NCBI GenBank assembly: GCA_965227835.1
Contig: OZ245768.1
Location: 1,320,001-1,352,000, forward strand
DNA length: 32,000 nt
Reading direction: 5' to 3'
DNA from: Candidatus Saccharimonadota bacterium
GTDB taxonomy: Bacteria > Patescibacteriota > Gracilibacteria > BD1-5 > UBA6164
Shown here: positions 10,005-32,000 of the stretch, piece after piece
Layout: each line of letters begins with the position of its first letter
Numbering within the stretch: the first letter of the stretch is position 1
Made by a program: the position numbers and the translations under genes
The notes under the pieces: generated by a model
Told to the model about the DNA's origin: nothing
The model's database searches: none
What the model saw: only the letters and a program-made list of their open reading frames with translations

Positions 10005-10065
10005 GAGGGCTAGGGTGAGGGCTAGGGTGAGGGTTTTTCGGAGAGGGCTAGGGTGAGGGCTAATC
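10005..10065 (+). repeat. GC-rich tandem 12-mer tract (GAGGGCTAGGGT and variants)
   Basis: GAGGGCTAGGGT GAGGGCTAGGGT GAGGGTTTTTCG GAGAGGGCTAGGGT GAGGGCTAATC. The 21-mer GAGAGGGCTAGGGTGAGGGCT (10041-10061) recurs with one mismatch at 10307-10327. Confidence 0.8.
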
Positions 10066-10178
10066 AGAAATAATCAATGGTAAAATGGCTGAAGCCATCC
10101 GTTGAAAGGAATATAATAACTTTTGGTTAATTTGCAATTAAGTTTTATTTTGCAAAAATCTTGCTATGCAAATGGCTA

Positions 10179-10220
10179 AATGCAAATACCTTAATGTGCA
10201 AATGGCTAAAGCCTTCTGCC
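10179..10220 (+). repeat. REP-like palindromic module, copy right of the IS110-family element
   Basis: AATGCAAATACCTTAATGTGCAAATGGCTAAAGCCTTCTGCC. It is preceded by partial TGCAAATGGCTAAA reiterations (10167-10187) and followed by the CTGTTCT module at 10258-10300. Confidence 0.75.
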
Positions 10221-10527
10221 AAAAAAATAAAAACTAGATATTAAGTTTATGTTACAATTCTTTATATCCCCTGTTCTCTCTCTGTTCTCTCCCCTCTCCT
10301 CTAAAGGAGAGGGTTAGGGTGAGGGCTGTACGGAGAGGATTAGAATTAAGCCTAACTTTCAAAATCTCAAACAAAATTTTAGTTATGTAAAAATTTGCTA
10401 TTTATCAAAACTCTAAAATTGATGTATTTTTAGAATAAAAAACTTTCAAGATATGACTAAAAAATTTGACTCAAAATATAAAAAAATATATAATAACTAT
10501 ATATTATATATTTAAATAATCAAAAAT

Positions 10528-14034: not shown

Positions 14035-15744
14035 TTATTTGTCCTCTAGATCCATCTCAACTCTCTCCAAGACCTCTTTTGTATTAGAATACTTTTCTGA
14101 AAAAAATCTGTGTTTCAGATTTTTTTTGTTTACAAAAATACTTTGGTAATATTTAGAATTATCATCCCATAAATTAGGCAATTTTTCCAGTCAAAGCTTA
14201 TAATAATTCAAAGACAAATCTCTTTTTATAAAATAAAGTAAGTTTCAGCAATATATATAGTTTTCAGCCGATTCCCCATATTTTATCAAATTCTCACATA
14301 GCCTTTTTGGATCTTTCTTATATTCTTTAAATATAGTTTTTTCTCTATCTTCAAACTCCATTTTTTCTAATAAATGATTATCCGTTTTGTATAGGCTATT
14401 ATTATAATACTTTCTTTCCTCCAAAAAATAATTTCAGTAAAAATATATTCAAAAAATAGAAACTAGTATAAAAAAACCAGAAATTAAATAATTATTTCAT
14501 TTTATTAACTCCTTATTAGAAGTATATATTATGCTAAGAGATAATATAACTACCAAATAACTTGCTGAGCTTGAAAAATTAAAAATATTAAACAAAAGAA
14601 AAATACTAAATATTTCTAAAGACATAGTTATATAGTTTTTATCCATTTTTTTTAAACTACCTAAAATCTTAAAAATATTTTTATAAAAACATATAATCAA
14701 GTAGATAAAAAATGATAATCAAACTAAACCAAAACTATAAAAAACATATAAAAATATATTATGAGGTCTGTCTGCTACAAATCAGTAATTTTCAAATATA
14801 TATAATTCTTTAACCTTAAAAGTTTCAAAAACCATATTAAGATTTCATAATCAATTTCACAAAGTAAATATTTTCAAATCAGATAAAACTATACTAAAGG
14901 TAGTTTCCCATATATAAAATCTAGATATAAAGCTTGAAAGCTTTTCAGGATAATATTTCAAAATTCACACTAAAAATAAAACAAATAAAAAAACCAATAT
15001 TTTATTGAATAACCTTTTTCATATTAGTTTTTTTAATTTTGAATAATTTAGATATATGAAATATGATGAAAGCAAAAATATTGCCCAAATAGATTTCGTC
15101 AGAATTATTGTTATACAAACTAATAAAAATGAAGATATTAGGATGTACTTTTTGTCTTTTTGTTTTATGTTATTTAATAATTTGCTTATAATGACTATTA
15201 TCATAAGCAAGTACATAGCAAGATAATTTGGATGTCCAAAACTTCAAATTGCCCTATTTGATAAATCTCAATAATCAAAACTAGGAAGAAGAAACTCTTT
15301 TATTGATATAATAGATACTAAAACTCAAGATAATATAGAGACTTTTAATAGTATAGTCTTTAATTTAGTATTTATTAAAATTATAAATAATCACAAAAGG
15401 TTTATAAAAAACAAAACTCAGTGTCATTTTTCATTATTTCATAAAATAGAAATTAGGGGAGATATAGAAAATAAACTTGATAAAAATAATATGAAAATAA
15501 ATACATAAATTAGCTTTGGTATATGATATTTTCTTTTTTTTAAAATACCCTCAACCAAAAAAAGAAATATAGAAAGAGAGGTAAATATATTTATGAAAGA
15601 TACTTTAAAAAATTCATAATTTCCATTTATGTGAAAGAACTTTCATATTTCCTTTATACCAAATGTATCTAATAAATGAGAGTGAATAATTGGGCTTAGC
15701 AAAAATATTAATATTACTAAACCCTTTATTGTTTTTGATAACAT
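14035..15744 (-). CDS. O-antigen ligase/polymerase-like (Wzy_C-type) multipass membrane protein with a soluble C-terminal tail
   Basis: 569 aa with TGA=Gly. It has more than 8 hydrophobic segments, and RAIGSFGHPNYLAMYLL and FVADRPHNIFLYVF resemble Wzy_C/O-antigen-ligase loops. The 105-aa C-terminal tail is hydrophilic. The standard-code ORFs at 15019-15216 and 14497-14700 are in-frame fragments of it. Confidence 0.6.
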
Positions 15745-22919: not shown

Positions 22920-23143
22920 TAATTTTTGGTTATTTTTAAATTTGTTTAGAGATAATATATTTTTTTAAAGTTTTTTCAAATTTAGGGTTTATATAAATAT
23001 AAAAATACTTAAAAACTTTTTTTATAAGATTTATCATTGAAAAATCTTAAATTGAGTTAGTTTTTAAATATTAAACTTCAAAAAATTTTTTAAAAATAAA
23101 TAAATATATCTGAAATTTATATATTCAAAAAAAGGCAAGTTTT

Positions 23144-23683
23144 TCAATCCTGCCTTTTTTCTTGTCTCTCCCTTTTGTATTTAAATGTGTTTACCCTTAT
23201 ATATCTTTTGAGAATAATAAATATCTTTTTTTTGTTTGATTTAAAGATATTTGTGAAAGCTTTAAGTTTTTGCCTAAGTTCATTTAAAGCATTTCTCAAT
23301 TTAATATATGAAGGATGTCCAACTATATACTGCTTTTGAGTAGCTATAAATTCAACTACTTTTCTATACCATAGATATTTCATCAACTTATCTCTACCAT
23401 ATATAATTATTATCATTGATATAAATCCTAGTGACATATCAAGAAATATTATGGTAAAGAATAAGGTTTTGTTTCCTGCTACAAAAGGTAGTATAAATTT
23501 AAATGCTACCTCCACAGATTTTATTGCTATAAATATGGTAATTGTAAGTCTAGCAGACCATTTTTTTATGACTTTTTCTGCAAAAATTATTTTTATCTTT
23601 CTAATGGGGCTAAGAATTAACTCCTCTATCATTAGAAACAAAAGCAAGCTTATGAAGAAAAAAATCTTTAGTACCTTTTTCAA
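23144..23683 (-). CDS. Hypothetical 3-4 TM membrane protein with a basic C-terminal tail
   Basis: The standard-code ORF spans 23144-23713. The preferred start is TTG (complement 23681-23683), 7 nt after AAGGAG, rather than GTG at 23713. It ends in TGA; under table 25 it would run 9 codons further, to TAA at 23117-23119. No internal TGA. No family recognised. Confidence 0.55.
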   Translation of the reverse strand: MKKVLKIFFFISLLLFLMIEELILSPIRKIKIIFAEKVIKKWSARLTITIFIAIKSVEVAFKFILPFVAGNKTLFFTIIFLDMSLGFISMIIIIYGRDKLMKYLWYRKVVEFIATQKQYIVGHPSYIKLRNALNELRQKLKAFTNIFKSNKKKIFIILKRYIRVNTFKYKRERQEKRQD

Positions 23684-23756
23684 GATTTGACTCCTTGTTA
23701 AAAAAATTGACACAAAAACTAGAATAATAAAAATTTTATGTTGTCAATTTTTTTTG

Positions 23757-23784
23757 TTGACAAATTGAAATTAATTTATAATTT
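23757..23784 (+). promoter_or_regulatory. Putative sigma70-type promoter for the 23862 gene
   Basis: TTGACA (23757-23762), a 16-nt spacer, then TAATTT (23779-23784), preceded by a T-tract. The -35 box is half of the palindrome TTGTCAA-N9-TTGACAA (23741-23763), whose other half gives a -35 on the minus strand. Confidence 0.45.
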
Positions 23785-23861
23785 ATAAAATGTTCTTATT
23801 TAATAAGTAAGAATTAATTTCGTTCTTTTAACTTTTCTGAAAAAATTAAGGAGTTTATTAA

Positions 23862-24899
23862 ATGATTGGTAAATTGAGTGAATTTTTTGATAAAATTAAA
23901 GAGTTTATGGATAGTTTTCCATCAATCTCTGATATATATCAGAAATTTAGATTTGGTATTCCTAGTTTTAATTACAAAGGAAAACCCATAATCCCTTTTT
24001 TGTTTTCTCCAAGAAGATGGCTTATATTTTTAGAAAGACTATCTGTTGGACTTATTGTATCTTTATTAGCAATAATTCTTTGGGTTTTTCCTGTTAGCTT
24101 GTTTGTTGCTCCCTTTTATTCTTTTACTCATTCAGATAAGGTAGAAGAATTTGTCATATATGATGGTGCTGAGGGTCTTACCACTGCAAATGCTCTTAGA
24201 GATGGCTTGATTTATCTTGAAGACAGTCTGGTTACAAACTTTTTTGGTGTAAGAAACTGGATTGATAATGCAGAAAATGAGCAAATAGGTATGATAGAAA
24301 TGTATCGTATTTCTGCCTATATGCTTGAAAACCATTTAGGTAGAAATAGAGGTTCTGGAGGAGCTAATGAATGCTTGAAATCTGCTCGTGCTGATATTAA
24401 TGCTGATTATACAATTCCATTATTTACTAGTTACAATACTAGATTGGAAAGTGCTATAAGAAATATTGATTGCTATACCAAACAGCTTTTAGAAGATCAA
24501 TCAAAAAGTATGAATGATAAGAGAGCTGTTTTTATAGTAAATTCCGATAATTTGGCAGAGGCATTGGATAAAATTAAGCAACAACTTGATAATCCTATAG
24601 AGGCCTCAAAAAATATGTCTTTTTTTGAACAAGATGATGTTTTCTATCAAATAAGAGGAAATCTTATAGCAATGTATATTTTCCTAAAAGGTATTGATCA
24701 TGATTTTAGAGATAAAATGATTGATAAAACCTTATATGAGCAAAACTTTACTCCTGTTTTGATTCTTTTGGAAGAAGCAATAGCATATAATCCTATCGTT
24801 ATTTTGAATGCTTTTGGTCATGTTGATAAGCTTACTGCAATTTCTCTTGATATAGTTAAAAAAATGGGAGAATTGAGAGACAAACTAAAAAAAGGTTGA
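23862..24899 (+). CDS. Membrane-anchored protein of unknown function (345 aa)
   Basis: AAGGAG lies 8 nt upstream of the ATG. Hydrophobic segments are at residues about 53-86 (WLIFLERLSVGLIVSLLAIILWVFPVSLFVAPFY), followed by a soluble domain of about 250 aa. It ends in tandem TGATGA immediately before a strong terminator. It may be DUF2333-like, but I cannot verify that. Confidence 0.75.
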   Translation: MIGKLSEFFDKIKEFMDSFPSISDIYQKFRFGIPSFNYKGKPIIPFLFSPRRWLIFLERLSVGLIVSLLAIILWVFPVSLFVAPFYSFTHSDKVEEFVIYDGAEGLTTANALRDGLIYLEDSLVTNFFGVRNWIDNAENEQIGMIEMYRISAYMLENHLGRNRGSGGANECLKSARADINADYTIPLFTSYNTRLESAIRNIDCYTKQLLEDQSKSMNDKRAVFIVNSDNLAEALDKIKQQLDNPIEASKNMSFFEQDDVFYQIRGNLIAMYIFLKGIDHDFRDKMIDKTLYEQNFTPVLILLEEAIAYNPIVILNAFGHVDKLTAISLDIVKKMGELRDKLKKG

Positions 24900-24906
24900 T
24901 GAAAGT

Positions 24907-24960
24907 CCCCCCTATTTAAATCCGATTTTATCGGATTTAAATAGGGGGGCTTGTTTTTTT
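24907..24960 (+). terminator. Rho-independent terminator
   Basis: Perfect 19-bp stem CCCCCCTATTTAAATCCGA / TCGGATTTAAATAGGGGGG with loop TTTTA, followed by CTTGTTTTTTT. Confidence 0.9.
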
Positions 24961-25076
24961 GGAGGAAATTTAGAGTTTTAGTTTTTTTATTATTTAATAA
25001 ATATAGACTATTAGTCTATATAAAGCTAAAGTTATATTTTTTTAAAATTAAATTTATGTGTTTTTGAATTTTTTTC

Positions 25077-25104
25077 TTGACAAAAAAATAATAATTGTTA
25101 TTGT
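25077..25104 (+). promoter_or_regulatory. Putative sigma70-type promoter for the 25174-31316 operon
   Basis: TTGACA (25077-25082), a 16-nt spacer, then TATTGT (25099-25104). The upstream context TTTTTTTCTTGACAAA closely resembles that of the 23757 promoter (TTTTTTTGTTGACAAA). Confidence 0.45.
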
Positions 25105-25173
25105 AGGAGAACTGAATTTTGGTTTACAAAGTTCAATTTGTTCGTTAAAATAAACTAACCAAAGGAGAAAATT

Positions 25174-26913
25174 ATGAAAAAATTTTTCTTAATTGTTATA
25201 AGCTCTTTGCTTATACCATCGGTGTCAATTGCACAAACAGTTGATTATTTAAATGCAAAACCTCTTACAGATGTTGTGAATATATCTGTAAAAAGTTGTT
25301 CTCAACCAAATGTGTTACAGATTCCTGTGATTGCATGGGGTGCAGATACTGTTATGTCTTTAGCAAATGGTAATGCCACCCGCACTTCTAGTGGAAGTAT
25401 TTTTTCAGAGAAAAACCTGGACATTTCTTTGTATAGGCAAGATAATTTCATACAACAAGTCAGGGATTATATGTCTTGTAAAACCCCATATCTAAGGGGT
25501 ACACTAGGCATGATTTCTCAGGCTAATGAGTTGTTATCTCAAAATCCTAATACAAAACCTGTAATTATCCATCAGCTAAGTTGGTCTTCAGGTGGAGATG
25601 CTTTAGTTGTTAGAGAGGGTATAAACTCCCCAAGTGACTTAAGGGGAAAAACAATTGTGATGCAGGCCTATGGCCCTCATGTTGATTATGCCCTGAAAGT
25701 TATTTCAGATGCTGGAATTGATCCATCAGATGTAGAGTTTAGGTATGTAAAAGACCTACTTGAAATAGATGATAATTCAGTTTCTCCAGCTATGGCATTT
25801 CGTAATGATTCCTCTATAGATGCTGCTTTTGTTATCTTGCCAGATGCTTTAGCTTTGACAAGTGACGGTAATGTTGGTACTGGAGCAGAAGACTCTGTCC
25901 TTGGTGCTAAGATTTTGTTTTCCACAAAAACGGCTAATAGAATCATCACTGATGTTTATGCAGTTAGGTCAGATTACCTACAAGTTAATCGAGATAGTGT
26001 AAATGATTTTGTTCATGGTCTACTTATTGCCCAAGAGCAACTAGAAAATACTATGAAGCTTAAATCAGGTAACTATGATGAAATTCTAAGTGCATCAGCT
26101 GATTTACTATTGGATGACAGGGAAGCAAAGGAAGATGTTATCGCTATGTATGGTGATGCTGATTTAATGGGATATCCTCAAAATGTTGATTTTTTTGGTA
26201 ATTCCAACTCAGCTAGAAACTTTGAAAGGCTTGTAACAGAAGTTCAGAAGTCACTTTTAGATTTAGGTATGGTTTCAAAGATAACCTCCCTTGATCATGC
26301 AAAGTGGGACTATGCAAAGCTTGCCTTAGGTCTCAAAAATACTTCTGGTGTAGAAGTTCCTCGTTTTGAATCAGCAGTGGTGCAAAAAGTAGTTGAAAGT
26401 CGTACAAGACAAGGTTCTAGTGAAGAAGGTGTTTTGTTTAGATTTGAAATTTATTTTGATGCAAACCAAAATGCTTTCCCTGTAGCTAGATATCAAGAAG
26501 AATCTGCTCGTGTCGTTGATTTGGCTTCTACATATGGTGGAGCTATTCTTTCCATTGAAGGTCATTCAGATCCATTAGGATATTTGAGAAAAAAGAAATC
26601 AGGAGATTCGGCAAAAGTATTGAGTGCAGTATCTCAGTCTGCAAAAAATCTGTCTTATAGCAGAGCAAATGCAGTAAAAGATATGCTTATTTCTTATGCC
26701 TCTCAACAAGGCATTACACTAGATTCTTCACAATTTGGTATCGTTGGTCATGGTGTTAGCCAGCCTAATACTCCAAATTGTACTCTAGACTCTAGTGGAG
26801 ATATAAGTTTAAGCTGTGCCCCAGCTAATGAAGCTGAATGGAATAGAACTCGTAGAGTTGTATTTAAAATCATTCAGGTAGAAGCTGAATCAAGTGTCTT
26901 TACACCACTCTAA
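25174..26913 (+). CDS. Secreted periplasmic-binding-protein (NMT1/SsuA/NrtA-like type 2 PBP) fused to a C-terminal OmpA-like peptidoglycan-binding domain
   Basis: AAGGAG lies 6 nt upstream. Signal peptide MKKFFLIVISSLLIPSVSIAQT. The PBP-like core includes SWSSGGDALVVREGINSPSDLRGKTIVMQAYGPHVDYALKVISDAGIDPSDVEF. The C-terminus is LSIEGHSDPLGY...NLSYSRANAVKDMLISY...GHGVSQP...NRTRRVVFKI, an OmpA_C/MotB-type pattern. 579 aa, no TGA. Confidence 0.8.
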   Translation: MKKFFLIVISSLLIPSVSIAQTVDYLNAKPLTDVVNISVKSCSQPNVLQIPVIAWGADTVMSLANGNATRTSSGSIFSEKNLDISLYRQDNFIQQVRDYMSCKTPYLRGTLGMISQANELLSQNPNTKPVIIHQLSWSSGGDALVVREGINSPSDLRGKTIVMQAYGPHVDYALKVISDAGIDPSDVEFRYVKDLLEIDDNSVSPAMAFRNDSSIDAAFVILPDALALTSDGNVGTGAEDSVLGAKILFSTKTANRIITDVYAVRSDYLQVNRDSVNDFVHGLLIAQEQLENTMKLKSGNYDEILSASADLLLDDREAKEDVIAMYGDADLMGYPQNVDFFGNSNSARNFERLVTEVQKSLLDLGMVSKITSLDHAKWDYAKLALGLKNTSGVEVPRFESAVVQKVVESRTRQGSSEEGVLFRFEIYFDANQNAFPVARYQEESARVVDLASTYGGAILSIEGHSDPLGYLRKKKSGDSAKVLSAVSQSAKNLSYSRANAVKDMLISYASQQGITLDSSQFGIVGHGVSQPNTPNCTLDSSGDISLSCAPANEAEWNRTRRVVFKIIQVEAESSVFTPL

Positions 26914-26929
26914 ACTTAGGAGAGAAAAA

Positions 26930-27694
26930 ATGAAGATTGTATTATCAATTCCAATCATCCTTTCACTCTTACTTGTAGGATGTGAAGGCTCTAAAACTTC
27001 TGTGTCACAACAGCAAGAATCTAGGCAAGAGTCTGGTAGTAGCAGTTCTCCAGAAAGTAGAGAAAGTGAAGTTTGGCCATATATGCCTGATAATTTGGGT
27101 AATATATCCATAGATTCAAATGTATTGGCTACCAACTATCTAGTACTTTTAGATACTTCTGGCTCAATGGATAAACGTGAATGTTCTGGAAACAAAACCA
27201 AACTTGAAACTTCAAAAGAAGCGATAGCTGAATTTGTAGACTTAGTACCTGAAAGTGATAATCTATCACTAATGAGTTTTCATGGTATGAGAGTTGATTT
27301 TGGTTCTGGAGACACAAATAGGAAAAATTTCCTAAATGCTATTAGTCAAGAAAGATCTTCTGGGGGAACTCCTTTGCATAGTTATACGAAAGAAAGTTTT
27401 TGGATTTTGACAAATCAAGCCCAAAAACAGCTAGGTTATGGGACTTATCGTCTTGTTGTAATAACAGACGGTGCTTCTTCAGATGATGATCCAGGTCCTC
27501 TAGTTGAGGAAATAGTTCGTAGATCTCCTATTGAAATCCATGTTATTGGATTTTGTGTGGGAGAAAAACATTCTATGAATAGACCTGGTTACTCAACTTA
27601 TTACACTGCTGATAGCCCAGAGCAATTAATGGAAGGATTGAGAAAAGTTCAAGCTGAGACTTCGGATTTTACTCAAACTTCTTTTGATAATTAG
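26930..27694 (+). CDS. Lipoprotein with a von Willebrand factor A (vWA) domain
   Basis: TAGGAG lies 7 nt upstream of ATG 26930 (the 26894 start in the ORF track overlaps the upstream gene and lacks an RBS). Lipobox LLLVGC, then a Ser/Glu/Gln-rich linker. MIDAS residues are in LVLLDTSGSM, SGGTPL and VVITDGASSDDD. Confidence 0.85.
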   Translation: MKIVLSIPIILSLLLVGCEGSKTSVSQQQESRQESGSSSSPESRESEVWPYMPDNLGNISIDSNVLATNYLVLLDTSGSMDKRECSGNKTKLETSKEAIAEFVDLVPESDNLSLMSFHGMRVDFGSGDTNRKNFLNAISQERSSGGTPLHSYTKESFWILTNQAQKQLGYGTYRLVVITDGASSDDDPGPLVEEIVRRSPIEIHVIGFCVGEKHSMNRPGYSTYYTADSPEQLMEGLRKVQAETSDFTQTSFDN

Positions 27695-27701
27695 AAACCT
27701 T

Positions 27702-27733
27702 ATAGTGTACAGGAGTTAGCTCCTGTACACTAT
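27702..27733 (+). terminator. Intercistronic perfect hairpin (attenuator, processing signal or weak terminator)
   Basis: ATAGTGTACAGGAG-ttag-CTCCTGTACACTAT, a 14-bp perfect stem. It is followed only by TTCCTTA, so there is no long U-tract. Confidence 0.4.
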
Positions 27734-27756
27734 TTCCTTATAAACAGGAGACTACA

Positions 27757-29319
27757 ATGAAAAAAACTACATTAATCGCAGGAATAGTTCTTGTTGTAGG
27801 CTTAGTTATTATTGTTTTGTCTTTCTTTATCGGGAAGGCATCTGAACAATCTCAGCAAACTAGTACCAGTGATGCAAGCAAATCAAAAGGAAGCATAACT
27901 ATAGGTATGGATAACTTTATAGGTTATTTTCCCTTATGTTCACCTTATATGAAGAAGCTTATGTTGGCTGATGGATACAAGCTAGATTGTGTGGACGATA
28001 AAGCTGATTATTCCAAGCGGTTTGAAAACCTTAGAAATGAAAATTTGGATTTTGCTGTATCAACTCTAGATGCATATATTCTAACAGGAGAAAGAACTAA
28101 TTATCCTGGTATAATAACTGCAGTTTTAGATGAAAGTAAGGGGGCAGATGCAATTGTCTCTCATATAGACTATGCAAAAACTCTTACAGAACTCAAAAAC
28201 AATTCCGACTTAAGAGTAGCTTTTACTCCAGAATCTCCAAGTGATCATCTAAGAAAGGCTGTAGGGATAGATTTTGATATTCCTTTGCTAAAAGATAATG
28301 GAGAATGGTCAATTAGGGTAAACGGGTCATCGGAAGCTAGAGAGTCTCTTAAATCAGGCAAATCTCAGATAGCAATATTATGGGAACCAGATTTAAGTAA
28401 GATTTTGTCTGATAAAGACTTTGTAAAGTTACTTGGAACAGAACAGACATCTGGTTTGATTGTTGATGTACTAATTGTAAATCGTGATTATTACCAAGAT
28501 AAGCCTGAAACTGTATCTCTACTTTTGAGTAACTATTTTAAGACACTCAAATATTATCGTGATAACCTAAGTAAATTTGAATCTGATTCAGCAAATTATG
28601 CAAAAGTTTCTAAAACCGTAGCAAAATCTATGTTGAGTGGTGTTAAGTGGGTTAATCTTACTGAAAATGCTACTGACTGGATGGGAGTATCCATATCTGG
28701 AAAAGTACCTAATCATAAATTGTTTGATTCAGCACAATCAACAATTCGTATTTTAAAGGACTTTGGTGATGTAGTAGATAATCCTCTTCCAGGAGATGAT
28801 CCAAGAAGTATTATCAACTCTCAAATTGTTTCAGATCTTTACAACAGAGGAATTCAGCCCGGGCAACAAACTAGTTTTATTCAAGAACATTCACCAAACT
28901 CATTGGAAACTGATTTTAGTCCTTTGAGTGAAAATGCTTGGAATTTGTTAAACGATGTTGGAATCTTAAAAGTAAGACCTATTAGATTTGGCTCAAGTTT
29001 GGCATCTTTGGATATTGAAGATAAAAAACAGCTAGATTTAGCTGTAGATTCACTCAAAAGCTACCCCAACTTTAGGATAGAAATTCAAGGGCATACTAGT
29101 CCTAGAGGAGATGAATCTATAAATCAACAACTATCTCAGGATCGTGCAGACTCCGTAAGTCGTTATCTTTTAACAACTTATGGTATTGATAAAGATAGAA
29201 TAAGGTCAATTGGCAAAGGTTCAAATATACCCATACCCCGTAAACCGGGTGAATCTTTAAGAGCCAACAGGTCAAAACAATCTCGTGTTGAGATACACTT
29301 GAAAACAGAGGTATATTAA
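27757..29319 (+). CDS. Membrane-anchored PBP-like (NMT1/SsuA-type) domain fused to a C-terminal OmpA-like domain (second paralogous architecture)
   Basis: CAGGAG lies 6 nt upstream. N-terminal TM LIAGIVLVVGLVIIVLSFFIG. The PBP-like region runs ITIGMDNFIGYFPLC...DFAVSTLDAYIL...SKGADAIVSH... The C-terminus is FRIEIQGHTSPRGDESINQQLSQDRADSVSRYLLTTYGIDKDRIRSIGKGSNIPI...SRVEIHL, an OmpA_C pattern. 520 aa, no TGA. Confidence 0.8.
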   Translation: MKKTTLIAGIVLVVGLVIIVLSFFIGKASEQSQQTSTSDASKSKGSITIGMDNFIGYFPLCSPYMKKLMLADGYKLDCVDDKADYSKRFENLRNENLDFAVSTLDAYILTGERTNYPGIITAVLDESKGADAIVSHIDYAKTLTELKNNSDLRVAFTPESPSDHLRKAVGIDFDIPLLKDNGEWSIRVNGSSEARESLKSGKSQIAILWEPDLSKILSDKDFVKLLGTEQTSGLIVDVLIVNRDYYQDKPETVSLLLSNYFKTLKYYRDNLSKFESDSANYAKVSKTVAKSMLSGVKWVNLTENATDWMGVSISGKVPNHKLFDSAQSTIRILKDFGDVVDNPLPGDDPRSIINSQIVSDLYNRGIQPGQQTSFIQEHSPNSLETDFSPLSENAWNLLNDVGILKVRPIRFGSSLASLDIEDKKQLDLAVDSLKSYPNFRIEIQGHTSPRGDESINQQLSQDRADSVSRYLLTTYGIDKDRIRSIGKGSNIPIPRKPGESLRANRSKQSRVEIHLKTEVY

Positions 29320-29322
29320 AAT

Positions 29323-30102
29323 ATGGTAAAAGAAGACAACCCTTTAATAAATGCTGATCTATCAAGAAAAGCAATAAACAGGGCTGTTTCATCTCAAGTG
29401 TTTCAAAGCCCATTAACTCTATTTTCTTTAATAGGTGGAGTTTTAGGGCTTTGTACTGGCTTCTTGTTCTCTTCTTCAGTTTTTATATATGTTGGAGTAG
29501 GACTTTTAGCTTTTGGCTTATTTGGAAAATTATTTAACTATTTTTTCCGAAGAGGTGCTCTAGAATCTAGCTATATACGAGAAATTCAGGAAAAACAGGA
29601 AGAATATCTTTCTAAATTACCCGAAAGATTGTCTGTAGCTTTCACAGAACATGGCCATGAGAATGGATTGAAACAGCTAAATGAGCTAGAAAAATCTTTT
29701 ATTGATTTTGATAATCTTCTTGATAGAAAGTTCTCATCAAAAGGACTTACTTTAGGAAGGTTTCATGCATCTGCTAATCAAGTTAGAATGTCTGCTTTAG
29801 CTAAACTTGAGATAATATCAGATTTACTTAAGTCTATTGAAAGTATTCCTGAAGATTTGGCTAGTGATGACCAAGAAATTTCTGAAGCTAAGAAAGCAAG
29901 AATCAATCATAGATCAGATGCTCTAAAAGACATTGAGCAATATCATCATGATATAGAAAACTGTCTTACAAGTATATCAGAAATAAGTGTTGAAGTAGCT
30001 AGAATAGGCACCAATTCTGATTCTGATATTTTGTTTGAAACCCAACTGGAAAGCTTGGATCGTTTAGCGAAAAGAGCTTCTCAATTTAAGAAAGAAAGGT
30101 GA
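29323..30102 (+). CDS. 2-TM plus coiled-coil protein, XpaC-like (TelA partner)
   Basis: Two adjacent hydrophobic segments (LTLFSLIGGVLGLCTGFLFSSSVFIYVGVGLLAFGLFG) are followed by a helical, acidic cytoplasmic region. It sits immediately upstream of, and translationally coupled to, the TelA gene, as xpaC-yaaN are arranged in Bacillus subtilis. It ends in TGA. Confidence 0.5.
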   Translation: MVKEDNPLINADLSRKAINRAVSSQVFQSPLTLFSLIGGVLGLCTGFLFSSSVFIYVGVGLLAFGLFGKLFNYFFRRGALESSYIREIQEKQEEYLSKLPERLSVAFTEHGHENGLKQLNELEKSFIDFDNLLDRKFSSKGLTLGRFHASANQVRMSALAKLEIISDLLKSIESIPEDLASDDQEISEAKKARINHRSDALKDIEQYHHDIENCLTSISEISVEVARIGTNSDSDILFETQLESLDRLAKRASQFKKER

Positions 30103-30107
30103 AAATT

Positions 30108-31316
30108 ATGGAAACTAACCAAACAAAAGTAACAGCTAGAACTTCAAGTGAACTTGATAGTTTATTTGGAACATCAGATCCAAATCAGCTCCCTGAAGTC
30201 ATTGAAGATACACCATCAAGTTTGACCCTAGTGAATCATAGTGAAATTAGTCCAGAAGCATCGCAAAGGGTAAGTGCTATAGTAGAGAACTTTAACTTAA
30301 GTGATACCAACTTGGTACTTATGTATGGTTCTGAACCTCAGCGTAAACTATCAGTATTTCTTGATTCCTTACTTGAAGGAATAAAGGTCAAAGATGTAGA
30401 TGTTGCTGGAGAGATGGTTTTACAAATGTCTGATGGCATTAATTTAATGCAGCTATCAAAAGTAAAAGCTTCAATAAACAGCAAAAAAACTAGTGGCTTT
30501 ATGGTTGGTCTTATTAATTCAATTGGACTTGGTAAGAACTATATTAAAGCTTTCTACGAAAGCCAAAAATTGGTTACATCAAAAATGGATAAGATTGAGG
30601 ATATGGCCCAAAATCAAATATCTATTATTGCTGAAAGAAACGAAAAACTAGATAGCTTGGTTGAACATTCTATACAGCAGGTTCTTGAACTTGAAGTGTT
30701 TATACTTGCTGGAGAAGAAATTCTTGAGTTAGCTAAGCTACAGTATGCTGAAAAGGCCCAAGAAGTGAAAAAAAGTAGGAATCAGCTGGAAGCTTCAAAT
30801 CTTCGTGATATGGGTAGACAGCTGGCAGCTTTTGATGTAAGGCTTCTTCGTCTGAAAGAAGCATATGTTGAAGCTGGCTCTGCAACTATTGAGCGAATTC
30901 GACAAATTCAGGAAGCTGGCAAGATTGAGATTCAAGGTCTCAATGATGGTATACTATTCACTATTCCAAAAATCAAGAAAGCCATTTTGCAAGTAGCTGC
31001 TTTAAATGATATTAAAACAGCACAAGAAGCTCGTAAGAAAATGGATGAAATTGATGCTCAATTGGATGCAGAATTATCAGAATCTACAAATTCTATTCAT
31101 ACTGCAGCAAAAAAGTCTCAAGGTGATGCTTTGGATCGAGTTCGTAGGCTTGAAGGAGTCATCTCTAATATAGAAAAATCAATTCAAGATAGTATCAGAA
31201 TTGAGAAATCTACTCAAGAAATGCGAGAAGAAGCTGGTAAAACGTTAGTTGGTTTAAAAGACCGTATTACTGATACTCTAAGTGAAACTAACCTAAAAGC
31301 CGCAGGAGCTGTATAA
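30108..31316 (+). CDS. telA: TelA/KlaA-family (toxic anion resistance-like) protein
   Basis: ATG 30108 follows GAAAGGTGA by 5 nt; the ORF track's GTG at 30099 is less likely. LMYGSEPQRKLSVFLDSLLEGIKVKDVDVAGEMVLQM... and the long helical remainder parallel B. subtilis YaaN/TelA (LQYGSQAQSKL..F....L..V..KDVGE.G) as I recall it. Confidence 0.85.
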   Translation: METNQTKVTARTSSELDSLFGTSDPNQLPEVIEDTPSSLTLVNHSEISPEASQRVSAIVENFNLSDTNLVLMYGSEPQRKLSVFLDSLLEGIKVKDVDVAGEMVLQMSDGINLMQLSKVKASINSKKTSGFMVGLINSIGLGKNYIKAFYESQKLVTSKMDKIEDMAQNQISIIAERNEKLDSLVEHSIQQVLELEVFILAGEEILELAKLQYAEKAQEVKKSRNQLEASNLRDMGRQLAAFDVRLLRLKEAYVEAGSATIERIRQIQEAGKIEIQGLNDGILFTIPKIKKAILQVAALNDIKTAQEARKKMDEIDAQLDAELSESTNSIHTAAKKSQGDALDRVRRLEGVISNIEKSIQDSIRIEKSTQEMREEAGKTLVGLKDRITDTLSETNLKAAGAV

Positions 31317-31325
31317 CTCAATATA

Positions 31326-31354
31326 AGCCCTACATCTTATCTAGATGTAGGGCT
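31326..31354 (+). terminator. Perfect hairpin after telA (possible terminator or stabiliser)
   Basis: AGCCCTACATCT-tatct-AGATGTAGGGCT, a 12-bp perfect stem with no U-tract after it. Confidence 0.4.
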
Positions 31355-31391
31355 CATCAAAACTTTATTAAAATTCTTTTAGGAGAAAAAC

Positions 31392-32000
31392 ATGAAATTT
31401 AAAATCCTTAGTATAATTGCTTTATTGTTTTCATCCATAGCAATTCCAGTTCAAGCTGCCGAACAGTGCGATATAGCTTGGTCTAGATACACAGGATGGG
31501 AACCTTTAGGATATATTGAAGATTCAGGGATTGCCGATAGATGGGGAGAAAAAGAAGGTGTAAACCTAAGCTTCTCATATGTTGGTGAATACATAGAAAG
31601 TGTGAATCTTTATAATGCCGGAACCTATCAAGGTGTGGCCATTACAACTATGGATGCACTAACTATCCCTGCTGTTGGAGGAGTAGACACGACTGTGATA
31701 ATAATTGGAGACTTTTCTAATGGTAATGATGCTATTCTTATCAAAGATGAAGATAAATCAATTAACGATTTGAGAGACAAAGAAATAATTCTTGTAGAAC
31801 TTTCTGTAAGTCATTATTTACTTGCTCGCGCTCTTGGAAAAGTCGGTATGTCTGAAAGGGATATTAATTTGGTAAATACTTCAGATACAGCTATTCCTTC
31901 CTTAATTGCTACAGCAAATCAGGGAGATACTTTTGTTACATGGAATCCTATTGTAATGAAAGGTCTCCAGCAACCTGGCATTTCAAAAATATTTGACTCT
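31392..32000 (+). CDS. Secreted NMT1/SsuA/NrtA-like substrate-binding protein (third PBP paralogue; 3' end outside window)
   Basis: TAGGAG lies 6 nt upstream. Signal peptide MKFKILSIIALLFSSIAIPVQA, then AEQCDIAWSRYTGWEPLGYIEDSGIADRWGEKEGVNLSFSYVGEYIESVNLYNAGTYQGVAITTMDAL...GNDAILIKDEDKSINDLRDKEIILVELSVSHYLLARALGKVGMSERDINLVN. Open for 203 codons to the window edge. It is absent from the ORF track because no stop is reached. Confidence 0.8.
   Translation, partial: MKFKILSIIALLFSSIAIPVQAAEQCDIAWSRYTGWEPLGYIEDSGIADRWGEKEGVNLSFSYVGEYIESVNLYNAGTYQGVAITTMDALTIPAVGGVDTTVIIIGDFSNGNDAILIKDEDKSINDLRDKEIILVELSVSHYLLARALGKVGMSERDINLVNTSDTAIPSLIATANQGDTFVTWNPIVMKGLQQPGISKIFDS

What the first reader, a model, noticed from the sequence alone, without database searches (positions are those of the whole stretch)
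25174..32000. Operon combining two PBP::OmpA-C fusions, a vWA lipoprotein, an XpaC-like protein, TelA and a third PBP: a candidate uncharacterised envelope sensing or stress module
One promoter-to-hairpin unit encodes six proteins in order. First is a secreted type-2 periplasmic-binding-protein domain (oxyanion-type NMT1/SsuA/NrtA-like) fused to an OmpA-like peptidoglycan anchor. Second is a lipoprotein with a complete MIDAS vWA domain. Third is a TM-anchored PBP::OmpA-C fusion. Then come a 2-TM coiled-coil protein, a cytoplasmic TelA, and after a hairpin a third free PBP. No ABC permease or ATPase is visible, so the binding domains look like wall-tethered ligand sensors or traps rather than transporter subunits. 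TelA with an XpaC-like partner is a known but mechanistically unexplained membrane-stress pair. vWA plus TelA/Ter proteins have been grouped in comparative-genomic work on Ter-type stress systems. I am not aware of this PBP::OmpA/vWA/XpaC/TelA combination being characterised. A speculative reading is an envelope complex that detects or sequesters an (oxy)anion and couples it to a TelA-type membrane response.
Basis: partly seen in the sequence, partly recalled or inferred. Interest (0 to 1): 0.85.

Follow-up and report, generated by a model that had tools for sequence, protein, structure and literature searches.

The report
Conserved TelA–vWA–tethered-binding-protein ABC transporter cluster
The six genes are real and mostly have the predicted domains, but they are the first three-quarters of a widespread, uncharacterised eight-gene cluster that normally includes an ABC importer, and here they sit in a standard-genetic-code block joined to a bacterium that reads UGA as glycine.

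Summary
The gene calls and most domain calls are confirmed. g1 and g3 are TauA/SsuA-type binding proteins fused to OmpA-like domains. g2 is a lipoprotein with an invariant MIDAS vWA domain. g5 is TelA and g6 is a free binding protein. "XpaC-like" for g4 is not supported by sequence. The missing ABC permease and ATPase are an artefact of the window end. In 44 related loci with full flanks, g1–g4 occur in 44, TelA in 41, the free binding protein and a TauC-like permease in 40, and a TauB-like ATPase in 39. The family occurs in at least 383 species across several phyla and on large Vibrio plasmids. I found no functional study, and RefSeq names the genes only generically. So this is an uncharacterised, conserved accessory module built around a NitT/TauT-type importer, not a transporter-free sensor. 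Separately, bases 1 to about 23000 are Gracilibacterial DNA in which UGA encodes glycine (69% of Gly codons) and genes lack Shine-Dalgarno sites. From 23862 onward there is no in-frame TGA, two genes stop at TGA, and all seven genes have Shine-Dalgarno sites. That indicates very recent transfer across a genetic-code boundary or an assembly chimera, and I could not tell which.

The parts
25077..25104 (+). Promoter-like site (TTGACA, 16 nt spacer, TG-TATTGT) upstream of g1, preceded by a T-tract.
   Evidence: Consensus scan, 10 of 12 matches with an extended -10 TG. This is a consensus match only. A strong RBS (AAAGGAG) precedes the ATG at 25174.
25174..26913 (+). g1: secreted TauA/NMT1-type binding protein fused to a divergent OmpA-like peptidoglycan-binding domain (579 aa).
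   Evidence: Pfam NMT1. The family profile reaches TauA at 8.8e-7 and Omp38 at 2.4e-4. hhalign to the g3 family gives E 3e-9 over 393 columns. D466 and R497, the canonical OmpA-type Asp/Arg pair, are invariant. A signal peptide is present. Orthologs occur in 44 of 44 loci.
26930..27694 (+). g2: lipoprotein with a vWA domain and a complete MIDAS motif (254 aa from the ATG at 26930; the mechanical ORF starts at the GTG at 26894).
   Evidence: VWA_2 at 39.2 bits and VWA at 34.3 bits. Lipobox LVG|C and RBS AGGAG. D75, S77, S79, T147 and D180 are 100% conserved in 24 orthologs. Orthologs occur in 44 of 44 loci.
27702..27733 (+). Intercistronic hairpin between g2 and g3 (14-bp stem, no U-tract).
   Evidence: -25 kcal/mol, z -5.8; also listed by the scan.
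27757..29319 (+). g3: protein with an N-terminal TM anchor, a TauA/SsuA-fold binding domain and a C-terminal OmpA domain (520 aa).
   Evidence: OmpA at 56 bits. SsuA_fam at 8.7e-6. AF2 model with pLDDT 87. Foldseek gives TauA target TM 0.81 and SsuA 0.79. More than 415 homologs of about 520 aa. R463 is invariant, but the canonical Asp position after GHT is not conserved.
29323..30102 (+). g4: 2-TM hairpin protein with a cytoplasmic helical tail. It is the TelA partner. Its TGA stop overlaps the g5 start (GTGA).
   Evidence: Hydrophobic segments at residues 26-66. Family alignment A3. Present in 44 of 44 loci, always directly upstream of TelA. No Pfam, NCBIfam or PADLOC family matches.
30099..31316 (+). 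g5: TelA-family protein of a divergent lineage (alternative start at the ATG at 30108).
   Evidence: PF05816 at 86.4 bits. No BLAST similarity to the TelA of the main cluster lineage. Relatives at 70% and 46% identity lie in the same architecture. An exhaustive search found 441 relatives.
31326..31354 (+). Hairpin after TelA (12-bp stem, no U-tract).
   Evidence: -20.8 kcal/mol, z -7.6. The terminator scan does not call it.
31392..32000 (+). g6: free secreted binding protein of the TIGR03427 / NitT-TauT class, truncated by the window end.
   Evidence: TIGR03427 at 5.7e-66 over 178 of 328 profile positions. Full-length orthologs score 440 and 434 bits against a cut-off of 333.9. In relatives it is followed by the permease and ATPase.
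23862..24899 (+). DUF2333 gene. It is not part of the cluster, but it belongs to the same standard-code block. It ends in a tandem TGA-TGA.
   Evidence: PF10095 at 51 bits. Adjacent to the cluster in 0 of 44 related loci. No in-frame TGA. SD site AAGGAG.
24907..24949 (+). Canonical intrinsic terminator after DUF2333. It separates that gene from the cluster.
   Evidence: 20-bp stem plus T-run. -35.9 kcal/mol, z -7.1.
22965..23861 (.). Boundary zone between code-25 Gracilibacterial DNA and the standard-code block. It is very AT-rich (12-25% GC) and holds one unassigned 189-aa membrane ORF (23144-23713, minus strand).
   Evidence: Composition profile. ORF and TGA census. No integrase, tRNA or flanking direct repeat. 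The 189-aa ORF has no family match.

Best explanation
The region is the first six genes of a conserved eight-gene envelope cluster.

Core of the cluster: a NitT/TauT-family ABC importer. It consists of the free binding protein g6 plus a TauC-like permease and a TauB-like ATPase. In this genome the permease and ATPase are inferred to lie just beyond base 32000.

Five co-inherited partners:
- two paralogous binding proteins tied to the cell wall by OmpA-like domains (g1 secreted, g3 also anchored in the cytoplasmic membrane);
- a metal-binding (MIDAS) vWA lipoprotein;
- a 2-TM protein (g4);
- a cytoplasmic TelA.

Proposed working (inferred, not shown): g1, g3 and the vWA lipoprotein form a wall-anchored capture or scaffold layer for a small polar solute. 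That layer feeds or positions the importer. g4 and TelA act on the cytoplasmic face of the same membrane patch, either gating the importer or protecting the membrane when the solute or its analogues are toxic.

Shown: gene content, domain folds, conservation, and linkage to the transporter. Inferred: substrate hand-off, physical complex, and the role of TelA.

Origin: in this window the cluster lies in a block written in the standard code (TGA is stop, Shine-Dalgarno sites present, 35% GC). That block is joined to Gracilibacterial DNA (UGA is Gly, no Shine-Dalgarno sites, 25% GC). This means a very recent horizontal acquisition or an assembly join. I put these at roughly equal odds.
For: - Domains.
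- Conservation: more than 415 g3 homologs and 383 species with a relative.
- Census of 44 full-context loci: g1-g4 in 44, TelA in 41, g6 in 40, permease in 40, ATPase in 39. 27 loci have the order g1-g2-g3-g4-TelA-g6-permease-ATPase. 9 have permease-ATPase first with g6 still last. 1 is a circular permutation.
- Pfam-annotated examples: Magnetofaba, Kordiimonas-like and Zooshikella genomes and the closest metagenomic relative.
- RefSeq-annotated example on Vibrio plasmid pAM7.
- Transporter class: TauC/TauB-like. g6 orthologs exceed the TIGR03427 cut-off.
- Code contrast: 206 TGA in 4440 host codons against 0 in 2576. TGA falls on invariant EF-Tu glycines. SD sites are present in 0 of 10 host genes and 7 of 7 block genes. 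Public gene calls on the 1,489,121-bp contig read TGA as sense.
Against: - The permease and ATPase could not be read in this genome. The source contig was not retrievable and is not among the species-representative genomes.
- 4 of 44 loci have the five-gene core without a transporter within about 9 kb, so the core may act without it.
- Nothing tested here shows physical interaction, substrate hand-off or any TelA activity.
- g3 lacks the canonical OmpA Asp, so its wall binding is not assured.
- The substrate is unknown. The TIGR03427 name ('putative urea') rests on linkage to urea carboxylase, which is absent from every annotated locus seen.
- No ykkC or other riboswitch was found.
Confidence: 0.6

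Rival explanations
1. One reading: a transporter-independent envelope sensor or trap. The wall-tethered binding proteins detect or sequester an (oxy)anion and signal to g4/TelA. The free binding protein and any ABC genes form a separate, merely adjacent operon.
For: - 4 of 44 loci keep g1-g4 (with or without TelA) and have no nearby transporter.
- A stable hairpin and a 75-nt gap separate TelA from g6.
- In Magnetofaba and the closest relative, gaps of about 220-230 bp precede g6.
Against: - The transporter genes are adjacent in 40 of 44 loci. In 9 loci the permease-ATPase pair lies upstream of g1 while g6 stays after TelA, so the transporter genes bracket the core.
- The hairpin has no U-tract, and a similar one lies between g2 and g3.
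- g3 has only about 5 cytoplasmic residues and g4 has almost no external loop, so there is no obvious signalling path.
Confidence: 0.15
2. An ordinary nutrient ABC importer operon with three binding proteins of different specificity. The vWA, g4 and TelA genes are passengers with no functional link.
For: - Multiple binding proteins per ABC importer are common (general knowledge).
- All three belong to one structural class.
- RefSeq annotates the genes generically.
Against: - vWA and g4 occur in 44 of 44 loci and TelA in 41 of 44. They keep a fixed order across Alpha-, Beta- and Gammaproteobacteria, Nitrospinota, Desulfobacterota, Elusimicrobiota and five CPR lineages, and on plasmids.
- Passenger genes would not persist that way.
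- The OmpA fusions are invariant features of both families.
Confidence: 0.1
3. An anti-phage or toxin-defence module of the Ter/TelA/Juk kind. TelA would be a membrane-acting effector and vWA a TerY-like partner.
For: - Marginal sequence hit of the window's TelA to JukB (9jht, E 0.003).
- Marginal PADLOC TerY hit for g2 (E 0.0066, no stretch passing on its own).
- The cluster is carried on large plasmids and shows a patchy phyletic distribution.
Against: - No PADLOC model matches TelA, g4, g1 or the Magnetofaba orthologs.
- g2 is a secreted lipoprotein, unlike the cytoplasmic TerY.
- No TerB/C/D/Z, kinase or phosphatase gene appears in any locus annotated here.
- The tight linkage to an importer is not explained.
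Confidence: 0.07
4. Origin rival: the block from about 23.1 kb onward does not belong to the Gracilibacterium. The contig is an assembly chimera with a low-GC standard-code bacterium, joined in a low-complexity AT-rich stretch.
For: - GC content, TGA usage and SD usage all switch at one point with no sign of amelioration.
- The join lies in DNA of 12-20% GC.
- There is no integrase, tRNA or direct repeat at the boundary.
- DUF2333 and the cluster are unrelated units that both carry the foreign signature.
Against: - The contig is 1.49 Mb, and its gene calls were made with TGA as sense, which suggests most of it is recoded.
- Each of g3, TelA and SerRS is a single-member cluster seen on one contig only. 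There is therefore no sign of a separately assembled donor genome.
- GC3 of the block (0.21) is close to the host's (0.17).
- The cluster is demonstrably mobile: it is on plasmids and in other CPR genomes.
- A T-tract+TTGACAAA motif is shared by host and block intergenic regions, but this is weak evidence.
Confidence: 0.45

Closest known systems
TauABC / SsuABC / NrtABC importers (NitT/TauT family of ABC transporters)
   Same: - The binding-protein fold of g1, g3 and g6 matches: TauA target TM 0.81 and SsuA 0.79; profile hits to TauA and NrtA.
- The permease and ATPase in orthologous clusters match TauC (5e-34) and TauB (2e-62) best.
   Different: - Two extra binding-protein paralogs are fused to OmpA-like wall anchors.
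- vWA lipoprotein, 2-TM protein and TelA genes are fixed within the same cluster.
- All equivalog scores are far below the cut-offs for taurine, sulfonate or nitrate systems, so the substrate is different or unknown.
TIGR03427 'putative urea ABC transporter substrate-binding protein' (urea-carboxylase-region transporter)
   Same: - g6 orthologs pass the equivalog cut-off (440 and 434 bits against 333.9).
- The window fragment matches at 5.7e-66.
- RefSeq uses this name in the Vibrio plasmid copy.
   Different: - No urea carboxylase or allophanate hydrolase gene lies in any annotated locus.
- No guanidine or other riboswitch is present in the window.
TelA with its membrane partner (xpaC-telA/yaaN in Firmicutes; klaA-telA-telB of plasmid RK2)
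   Same: - A TelA-family protein (PF05816) is encoded directly after, and translationally coupled to, a small membrane protein with a 2-TM hairpin and a helical cytoplasmic tail.
- xpaC-telA is reported as an envelope-stress or daptomycin-response pair (PMC6811118, abstract seen).
   Different: - g4 shows no sequence relationship to XpaC.
- The pair is embedded in a transporter cluster.
- The window's TelA belongs to a rare divergent lineage.
OmpA-C-type peptidoglycan anchors that bridge the inner membrane and the wall (MotB, TssL, Pal, YiaD)
   Same: - g3 has an N-terminal TM helix plus a C-terminal OmpA domain, like MotB and TssL.
- YiaD at 7e-20 and Pal at 2.5e-10.
- PDB OmpA-like domains at 1e-22 and weaker.
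- The top Foldseek hit is the TssL periplasmic domain.
   Different: - A complete 330-residue solute-binding domain is inserted between the anchor and the wall-binding domain.
- The canonical Asp of the DAP-binding pair is not conserved in g3, although it is in g1.
Ter stress cluster with TerY-type vWA proteins
   Same: A vWA protein and a tellurite-resistance-associated protein are encoded together.
   Different: - No TerB, TerC, TerD or TerZ genes.
- The vWA protein is a secreted lipoprotein.
- The TerY model match is marginal (E 0.0066).

Membership tests
NitT/TauT-family ABC importer | Type-2 periplasmic binding protein of the TauA/SsuA/NrtA class | tested here: met
   - g3 model against TauA target TM 0.81 and SsuA 0.79.
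- g1 family profile against TauA at 8.8e-7.
- g6 against SsuA_fam at 4e-10 and TIGR03427 at 5.7e-66.
NitT/TauT-family ABC importer | Adjacent TauC-like permease and TauB-like ATPase | tested here: inconclusive
   - The window ends inside g6, and the source contig could not be fetched.
- In orthologous clusters the permease is present in 40 of 44 loci and the ATPase in 39 of 44.
- Best family matches are TauC at 5e-34 and TauB at 2e-62.
TIGR03427 urea-carboxylase-region binding protein | Score above the curated equivalog cut-off (333.9 bits) | tested here: inconclusive
   - The window fragment (202 aa) scores 222.9 bits over 54% of the model.
- Full-length orthologs score 440 and 434 bits.
TIGR03427 urea-carboxylase-region binding protein | Genomic linkage to urea carboxylase / allophanate hydrolase | tested here: not met
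   None lies within 10 kb in the five Pfam-annotated loci, or within 8 kb in the RefSeq plasmid locus.
TelA (PF05816, toxic anion resistance protein) | Full-length match above the gathering score | tested here: met
   86.4 bits against 30, covering profile positions 2-331 of 332.
XpaC (PF10112) | Sequence match to the family model | tested here: not met
   No hit for g4 at E<=10. No hit for any of 23 g4-family members at E<=1.
XpaC (PF10112) | 2-TM protein with a helical tail encoded directly upstream of telA | tested here: met
   Topology, family alignment, and adjacency in 41 of 44 loci. This is a resemblance in arrangement only.
OmpA_C-like peptidoglycan-binding domain (PF00691) | Model match above the gathering score | tested here: met
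   - g3: 56 bits against 27.2.
- g1 alone fails (16.4 bits), but it passes at family level: Omp38 at 2.4e-4 and hhalign to g3 across the domain.
OmpA_C-like peptidoglycan-binding domain (PF00691) | Conserved Asp/Arg pair that binds diaminopimelate | tested here: inconclusive
   - g1: D466 and R497 are invariant.
- g3: R463 is invariant, but the position after GHT is Ser in the window and is variable in the family; D452 is nearly invariant nearby.
- Binding itself was not tested.
vWA domain with MIDAS | DxSxS...T...D metal-binding motif and a model match | tested here: met
   VWA_2 at 39.2 bits against 27. D75, S77, S79, T147 and D180 are 100% conserved in 24 sequences.
Bacterial lipoprotein | Signal peptide ending in a lipobox L-x-G/A-C | tested here: met
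   g2 has LLLVG|C at residues 13-18, counting from the ATG at 26930.
Known anti-phage defence systems (PADLOC v2) | Any component matching a defence-system model | tested here: not met
   The only matches are generic MotB-domain (ZorB) hits on the OmpA domain of g3 and a marginal TerY hit on g2.
Genetic code 25 (UGA is Gly) host | In-frame TGA at conserved glycine positions of housekeeping genes | tested here: met
   - EF-Tu has TGA at DCPGH, GRGTVVTG and REGGRTVG.
- 206 TGA among 4440 host codons, which is 69% of Gly codons.
- The block at 23862-32000 has 0 TGA among 2576 codons.

The most novel reading that the evidence does not exclude
The eight genes encode a previously undescribed envelope machine. 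Two wall-tethered binding proteins and a MIDAS lipoprotein capture a small solute and pass it to a dedicated ABC importer. The activity or membrane impact of that importer is controlled from the cytoplasmic side by TelA and its 2-TM partner, which would give TelA its first defined molecular context. In addition, this copy would be a genuine, very recent transfer from a standard-code bacterium into a UGA=Gly Gracilibacterium, where two of its genes must tolerate stop-codon read-through.
Probability: 0.2. Interest if true: 0.75.

Novelty: new variant of a known kind. Interest (0 to 1): 0.5.

Why it matters
TelA has been linked to tellurite, bacteriocin and daptomycin tolerance for decades without a mechanism. 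Here it sits in a strictly conserved arrangement: next to a defined ABC importer, two wall-anchored binding proteins and a metal-binding lipoprotein, in hundreds of species that include culturable ones (Zooshikella, Kordiimonas, Desulfosarcina, Vibrio plasmids). That gives a concrete, testable setting for its function. It also defines an unusual class of binding proteins tethered to peptidoglycan. Separately, if the junction is real, the window is a clean natural example of gene flow across a genetic-code boundary. The acquired genes still carry the donor's stop-codon and ribosome-binding-site usage.

Tried and rejected
1. Exact-sequence retrieval of the source contig, to read beyond 32000, failed. 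I tried TelA with two alternative starts, g3 and P0001. The genome is also not among the species-representative genomes.
2. Exact look-ups of host EF-Tu and of code-11 and code-25 versions of g4 and DUF2333 found nothing. This was later explained: the public calls translate TGA as Trp.
3. A metagenome scan with DUF2333, looking for an independent assembly of the junction, found nothing.
4. An empty-site comparison in related Gracilibacteria was not possible. Gene order around SerRS is not conserved in them.
5. The XpaC relationship of g4 is rejected at sequence level.
6. The cluster as a known defence system is rejected by PADLOC. The JukB link is only E 0.003.
7. No riboswitch or other Rfam family was found; the only hits are two tRNAs.
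8. I first read the window's TelA as a one-off replacement. That is rejected, because the same divergent TelA lineage occurs in the same architecture on L084/L085 and L092.
9. Literature: nothing on this combination in the searchable library. The Ter/TelA comparative-genomics paper (Anantharaman et al. 2012, PMC4104200) is not held, so I could not check whether it already lists this neighbourhood.
10. DUF2333 as a cluster member is rejected: it is adjacent in 0 of 44 loci.

Full report
**What is in the sequence**

- g1 (25174-26913) has a cleavable signal peptide and a weak NMT1/TauA-type match. Its C-terminal OmpA call fails on the single sequence (16.4 bits against a cut-off of 27.2).
- A 25-sequence family profile for g1 reaches TauA (8.8e-7), NrtA (1.7e-4) and the OmpA-like domain of Omp38 (2.4e-4).
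- A profile-profile comparison aligns the g1 and g3 families over 393 columns that span both domains (probability 96%, E 3e-9).
- g2 most likely starts at the ATG at 26930 behind an AGGAG site. It has a lipobox (LVG|C) and a vWA domain. Its MIDAS residues are invariant in 24 orthologs.
- g3 (27757-29319) has one N-terminal TM helix and a solid OmpA domain (56 bits). Its confident AlphaFold model (pLDDT 87) superposes best on TauA and SsuA (target TM 0.79-0.81).
- g4 (29323-30102) is a 2-TM hairpin protein with a helical tail.
- g5 is a full-length TelA (86 bits).
- g6 is cut by the window end and matches TIGR03427 at 5.7e-66.

The hairpin after TelA is real but has no U-tract. An equally strong hairpin lies between g2 and g3. 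Only the hairpin after the upstream DUF2333 gene is a canonical terminator.

**What was wrong or unsupported**

'XpaC-like' is not supported by sequence. Neither g4 nor any of 23 family members gives an XpaC signal at permissive thresholds. What remains is a similar topology and a similar position next to telA.

More importantly, 'no ABC permease or ATPase' is an effect of the window edge.

**The cluster elsewhere**

g3 has more than 415 homologs of about 520 aa, which NCBI names 'phosphate ABC transporter substrate-binding/OmpA family protein'. 383 species-representative genomes encode a relative.

- In Magnetofaba australis the order is NMT1::OmpA, VWA, PBP::OmpA, unknown, TelA, NMT1-type binding protein, BPD_transp_1 permease, ABC_tran ATPase.
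- The same eight genes occur in a Kordiimonas-like genome, in Zooshikella and in the closest metagenomic relative.
- A tblastn census of the 44 loci with full flanks gives g1-g4 in 44, TelA in 41, the free binding protein and the permease in 40, and the ATPase in 39.
- 27 loci have the canonical order. In 9 loci permease-ATPase precedes g1 while the free binding protein stays after TelA. One locus is a circular permutation. Four loci have no transporter nearby.
- Carriers include Alpha-, Beta- and Gammaproteobacteria, Nitrospinota, Desulfobacterota, Elusimicrobiota and five CPR lineages.
- Six large Vibrio plasmids carry it too. RefSeq labels the genes there as ABC ATPase, OmpA family protein, vWA domain-containing protein, phosphate ABC transporter substrate-binding/OmpA family protein, hypothetical protein, toxic anion resistance protein, putative urea ABC transporter substrate-binding protein and ABC permease.
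- The permease and ATPase are closest to TauC and TauB. Full-length g6 orthologs pass the TIGR03427 cut-off.
- DUF2333 is never adjacent in other genomes, so it is not part of the cluster.

**How it most likely works**

Shown:
- a NitT/TauT-type importer is genetically locked to two wall-anchor-fused paralogs of its binding protein, a MIDAS lipoprotein, a 2-TM protein and TelA;
- the transporter genes can bracket the five-gene core, which argues for one functional unit.

Inferred:
- g1, g3 and the vWA lipoprotein form a peptidoglycan-anchored capture or scaffold layer for a small polar solute that serves the importer;
- g4 and TelA act at the cytoplasmic face of the same membrane region, either regulating the importer or limiting membrane damage.

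Two points limit this reading. g3 has almost no cytoplasmic residues and g4 has almost no external loop, so classical transmembrane signalling from the binding domains is unlikely. The substrate is also unknown. The 'urea' label rests on linkage to urea carboxylase, which is absent from every annotated locus. All taurine, sulfonate and nitrate equivalog scores are far below their cut-offs, and no riboswitch is present.

The rival explanations are weaker. They are a transporter-independent sensor, an ordinary transporter with passenger genes, and an anti-phage module. PADLOC is negative and the TelA-JukB link is marginal.

**TelA lineage**

The window's TelA has no detectable BLAST similarity to the TelA of the main cluster lineage. 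That lineage's TelA is 28-45% identical across 73 loci. The word-indexed search found only one relative among 5.8 billion proteins, while an exhaustive search found 441. Its relatives at 70% and 46% identity sit in the same g3-g4-TelA-binding-protein(-permease) architecture, with neighbours that are only 25-50% identical to the window's. The cluster family therefore carries at least two deeply divergent TelA lineages.

**Context: two genetic codes in one window**

Bases 1 to about 23000 have almost no ORFs under the standard code. They fill with long ORFs when TGA is read as sense.

- TGA falls on universally conserved glycines of EF-Tu.
- TGA makes up 4.6% of codons there, which is 69% of all Gly codons.
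- The genes are housekeeping genes (EF-Tu, DnaG, SerRS, ProRS, VanY and others) plus three IS transposases.
- SerRS is 76% identical to a protein named 'Candidatus Gracilibacteria bacterium'. It also matches a protein on the same 1,489,121-bp contig as g3 and TelA, differing only by Gly to Trp at all 23 TGA positions. So the public calls on that contig also read TGA as sense.

From 23862 onward the pattern changes.

- There is no in-frame TGA in 2576 codons.
- DUF2333 ends in TGA-TGA before a strong terminator, and g4 ends in a TGA that overlaps the g5 start.
- GC content rises from about 25% to about 35%.
- All seven genes have Shine-Dalgarno sites, against none of ten host genes.

The switch lies in AT-rich DNA with no integrase, tRNA or direct repeats.

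This is either a very recent acquisition from a low-GC standard-code donor or an assembly chimera.

- For acquisition: the cluster is mobile and present in other CPR genomes.
- For acquisition: the block's GC3 (0.21) is close to the host's (0.17).
- For acquisition: no duplicate donor contig exists in the database.
- For a chimera: three signals (GC, TGA use, SD use) switch together in low-complexity sequence.

I could not separate the two. A metagenome scan found nothing, and gene order in related genomes is not conserved. The functional conclusions about the cluster do not depend on this.

**Novelty and score**

The parts are all known kinds and the proteins carry generic RefSeq names. The fixed eight-gene combination has no functional description that I could find. 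I could not read the 2012 Ter/TelA comparative-genomics paper, which may already list it.

I rate it a new variant of a known kind: an ABC importer with an unusual, conserved accessory module. Interest is moderate at 0.5. It is not low, because the cluster offers a tractable context for TelA and the code-boundary junction is unusual if real.

Noticed in passing
window 1-23000: This stretch is Gracilibacterial DNA in which UGA encodes glycine. It is nearly ORF-free under table 11 but fully coding under code 25. TGA supplies 69% of Gly codons and falls on invariant glycines of EF-Tu.
   Followed up: yes
window 22965-25173 and 23862-32000: GC content, TGA use and Shine-Dalgarno use all switch sharply at one boundary. 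The right-hand block has 0 sense TGA, uses TGA as a stop (tandem TGA-TGA after DUF2333, GTGA overlap of g4 and g5), and has SD sites on 7 of 7 genes against 0 of 10 host genes. This is either recent cross-code gene transfer or an assembly chimera, and it is unresolved.
   Followed up: partly
window 30099-31316; L084, L085, L092: The window's TelA belongs to a rare TelA lineage with no BLAST similarity to the TelA of most clusters of this type. It nevertheless sits in the same gene architecture in three other contigs. So the cluster family carries at least two deeply divergent TelA lineages.
   Followed up: yes
window 4001-5197, 5480-5926, 8866-9945: Three different transposase genes lie within 6 kb: IS4-like DDE, IS200 Y1 and IS110 DEDD. 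All are read in code 25.
   Followed up: partly
window 8544-8576 and 9990-10330: G-rich direct repeats (GAGGGCTAGGGTGAGGGCT-like) and 33-nt repeats containing a palindrome flank the IS110-type transposase gene. They stand out in DNA of 24% GC and may be element ends or an associated non-coding RNA region.
   Followed up: no
window 7171-8442 (minus strand): A 418-aa protein has a prepilin N-methylation motif (FTLVELIVV) and a large unassigned C-terminal part. It looks like a pilin-like surface protein of the host.
   Followed up: partly
window 23144-23713 (minus strand): A 189-aa Lys/Ile-rich membrane ORF with no family match lies at the boundary. Its standard-code TGA stop lies in the loop of a small hairpin, so it is unclear whether it belongs to the host or to the foreign block.
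   Followed up: partly
L016, L023, L033, L037, L062: The same cluster occurs in five other CPR lineages (Sung-, Parcu-, Sacchari-, Kaiser- and Adlerbacteria). There its GC content is about 1-7 points above the flanks, which hints at repeated acquisition by CPR bacteria.
   Followed up: partly
L094 (Vibrio rotiferianus plasmid pAM7, NZ_AP019800.1) and L093 (IMG/VR contig of 545 kb): A distant copy of the full cluster (g3 33-35% identical) is carried on large Vibrio plasmids next to an RctB-type replication gene. One relative lies on a contig classed as viral in IMG/VR.
   Followed up: partly
window 14101-14136, 23729-23764, 25049-25084: A T-tract followed by TTGACAAA (promoter-like) recurs upstream of a host gene, of DUF2333 and of g1. 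It may be a shared promoter style or chance in AT-rich DNA.
   Followed up: no
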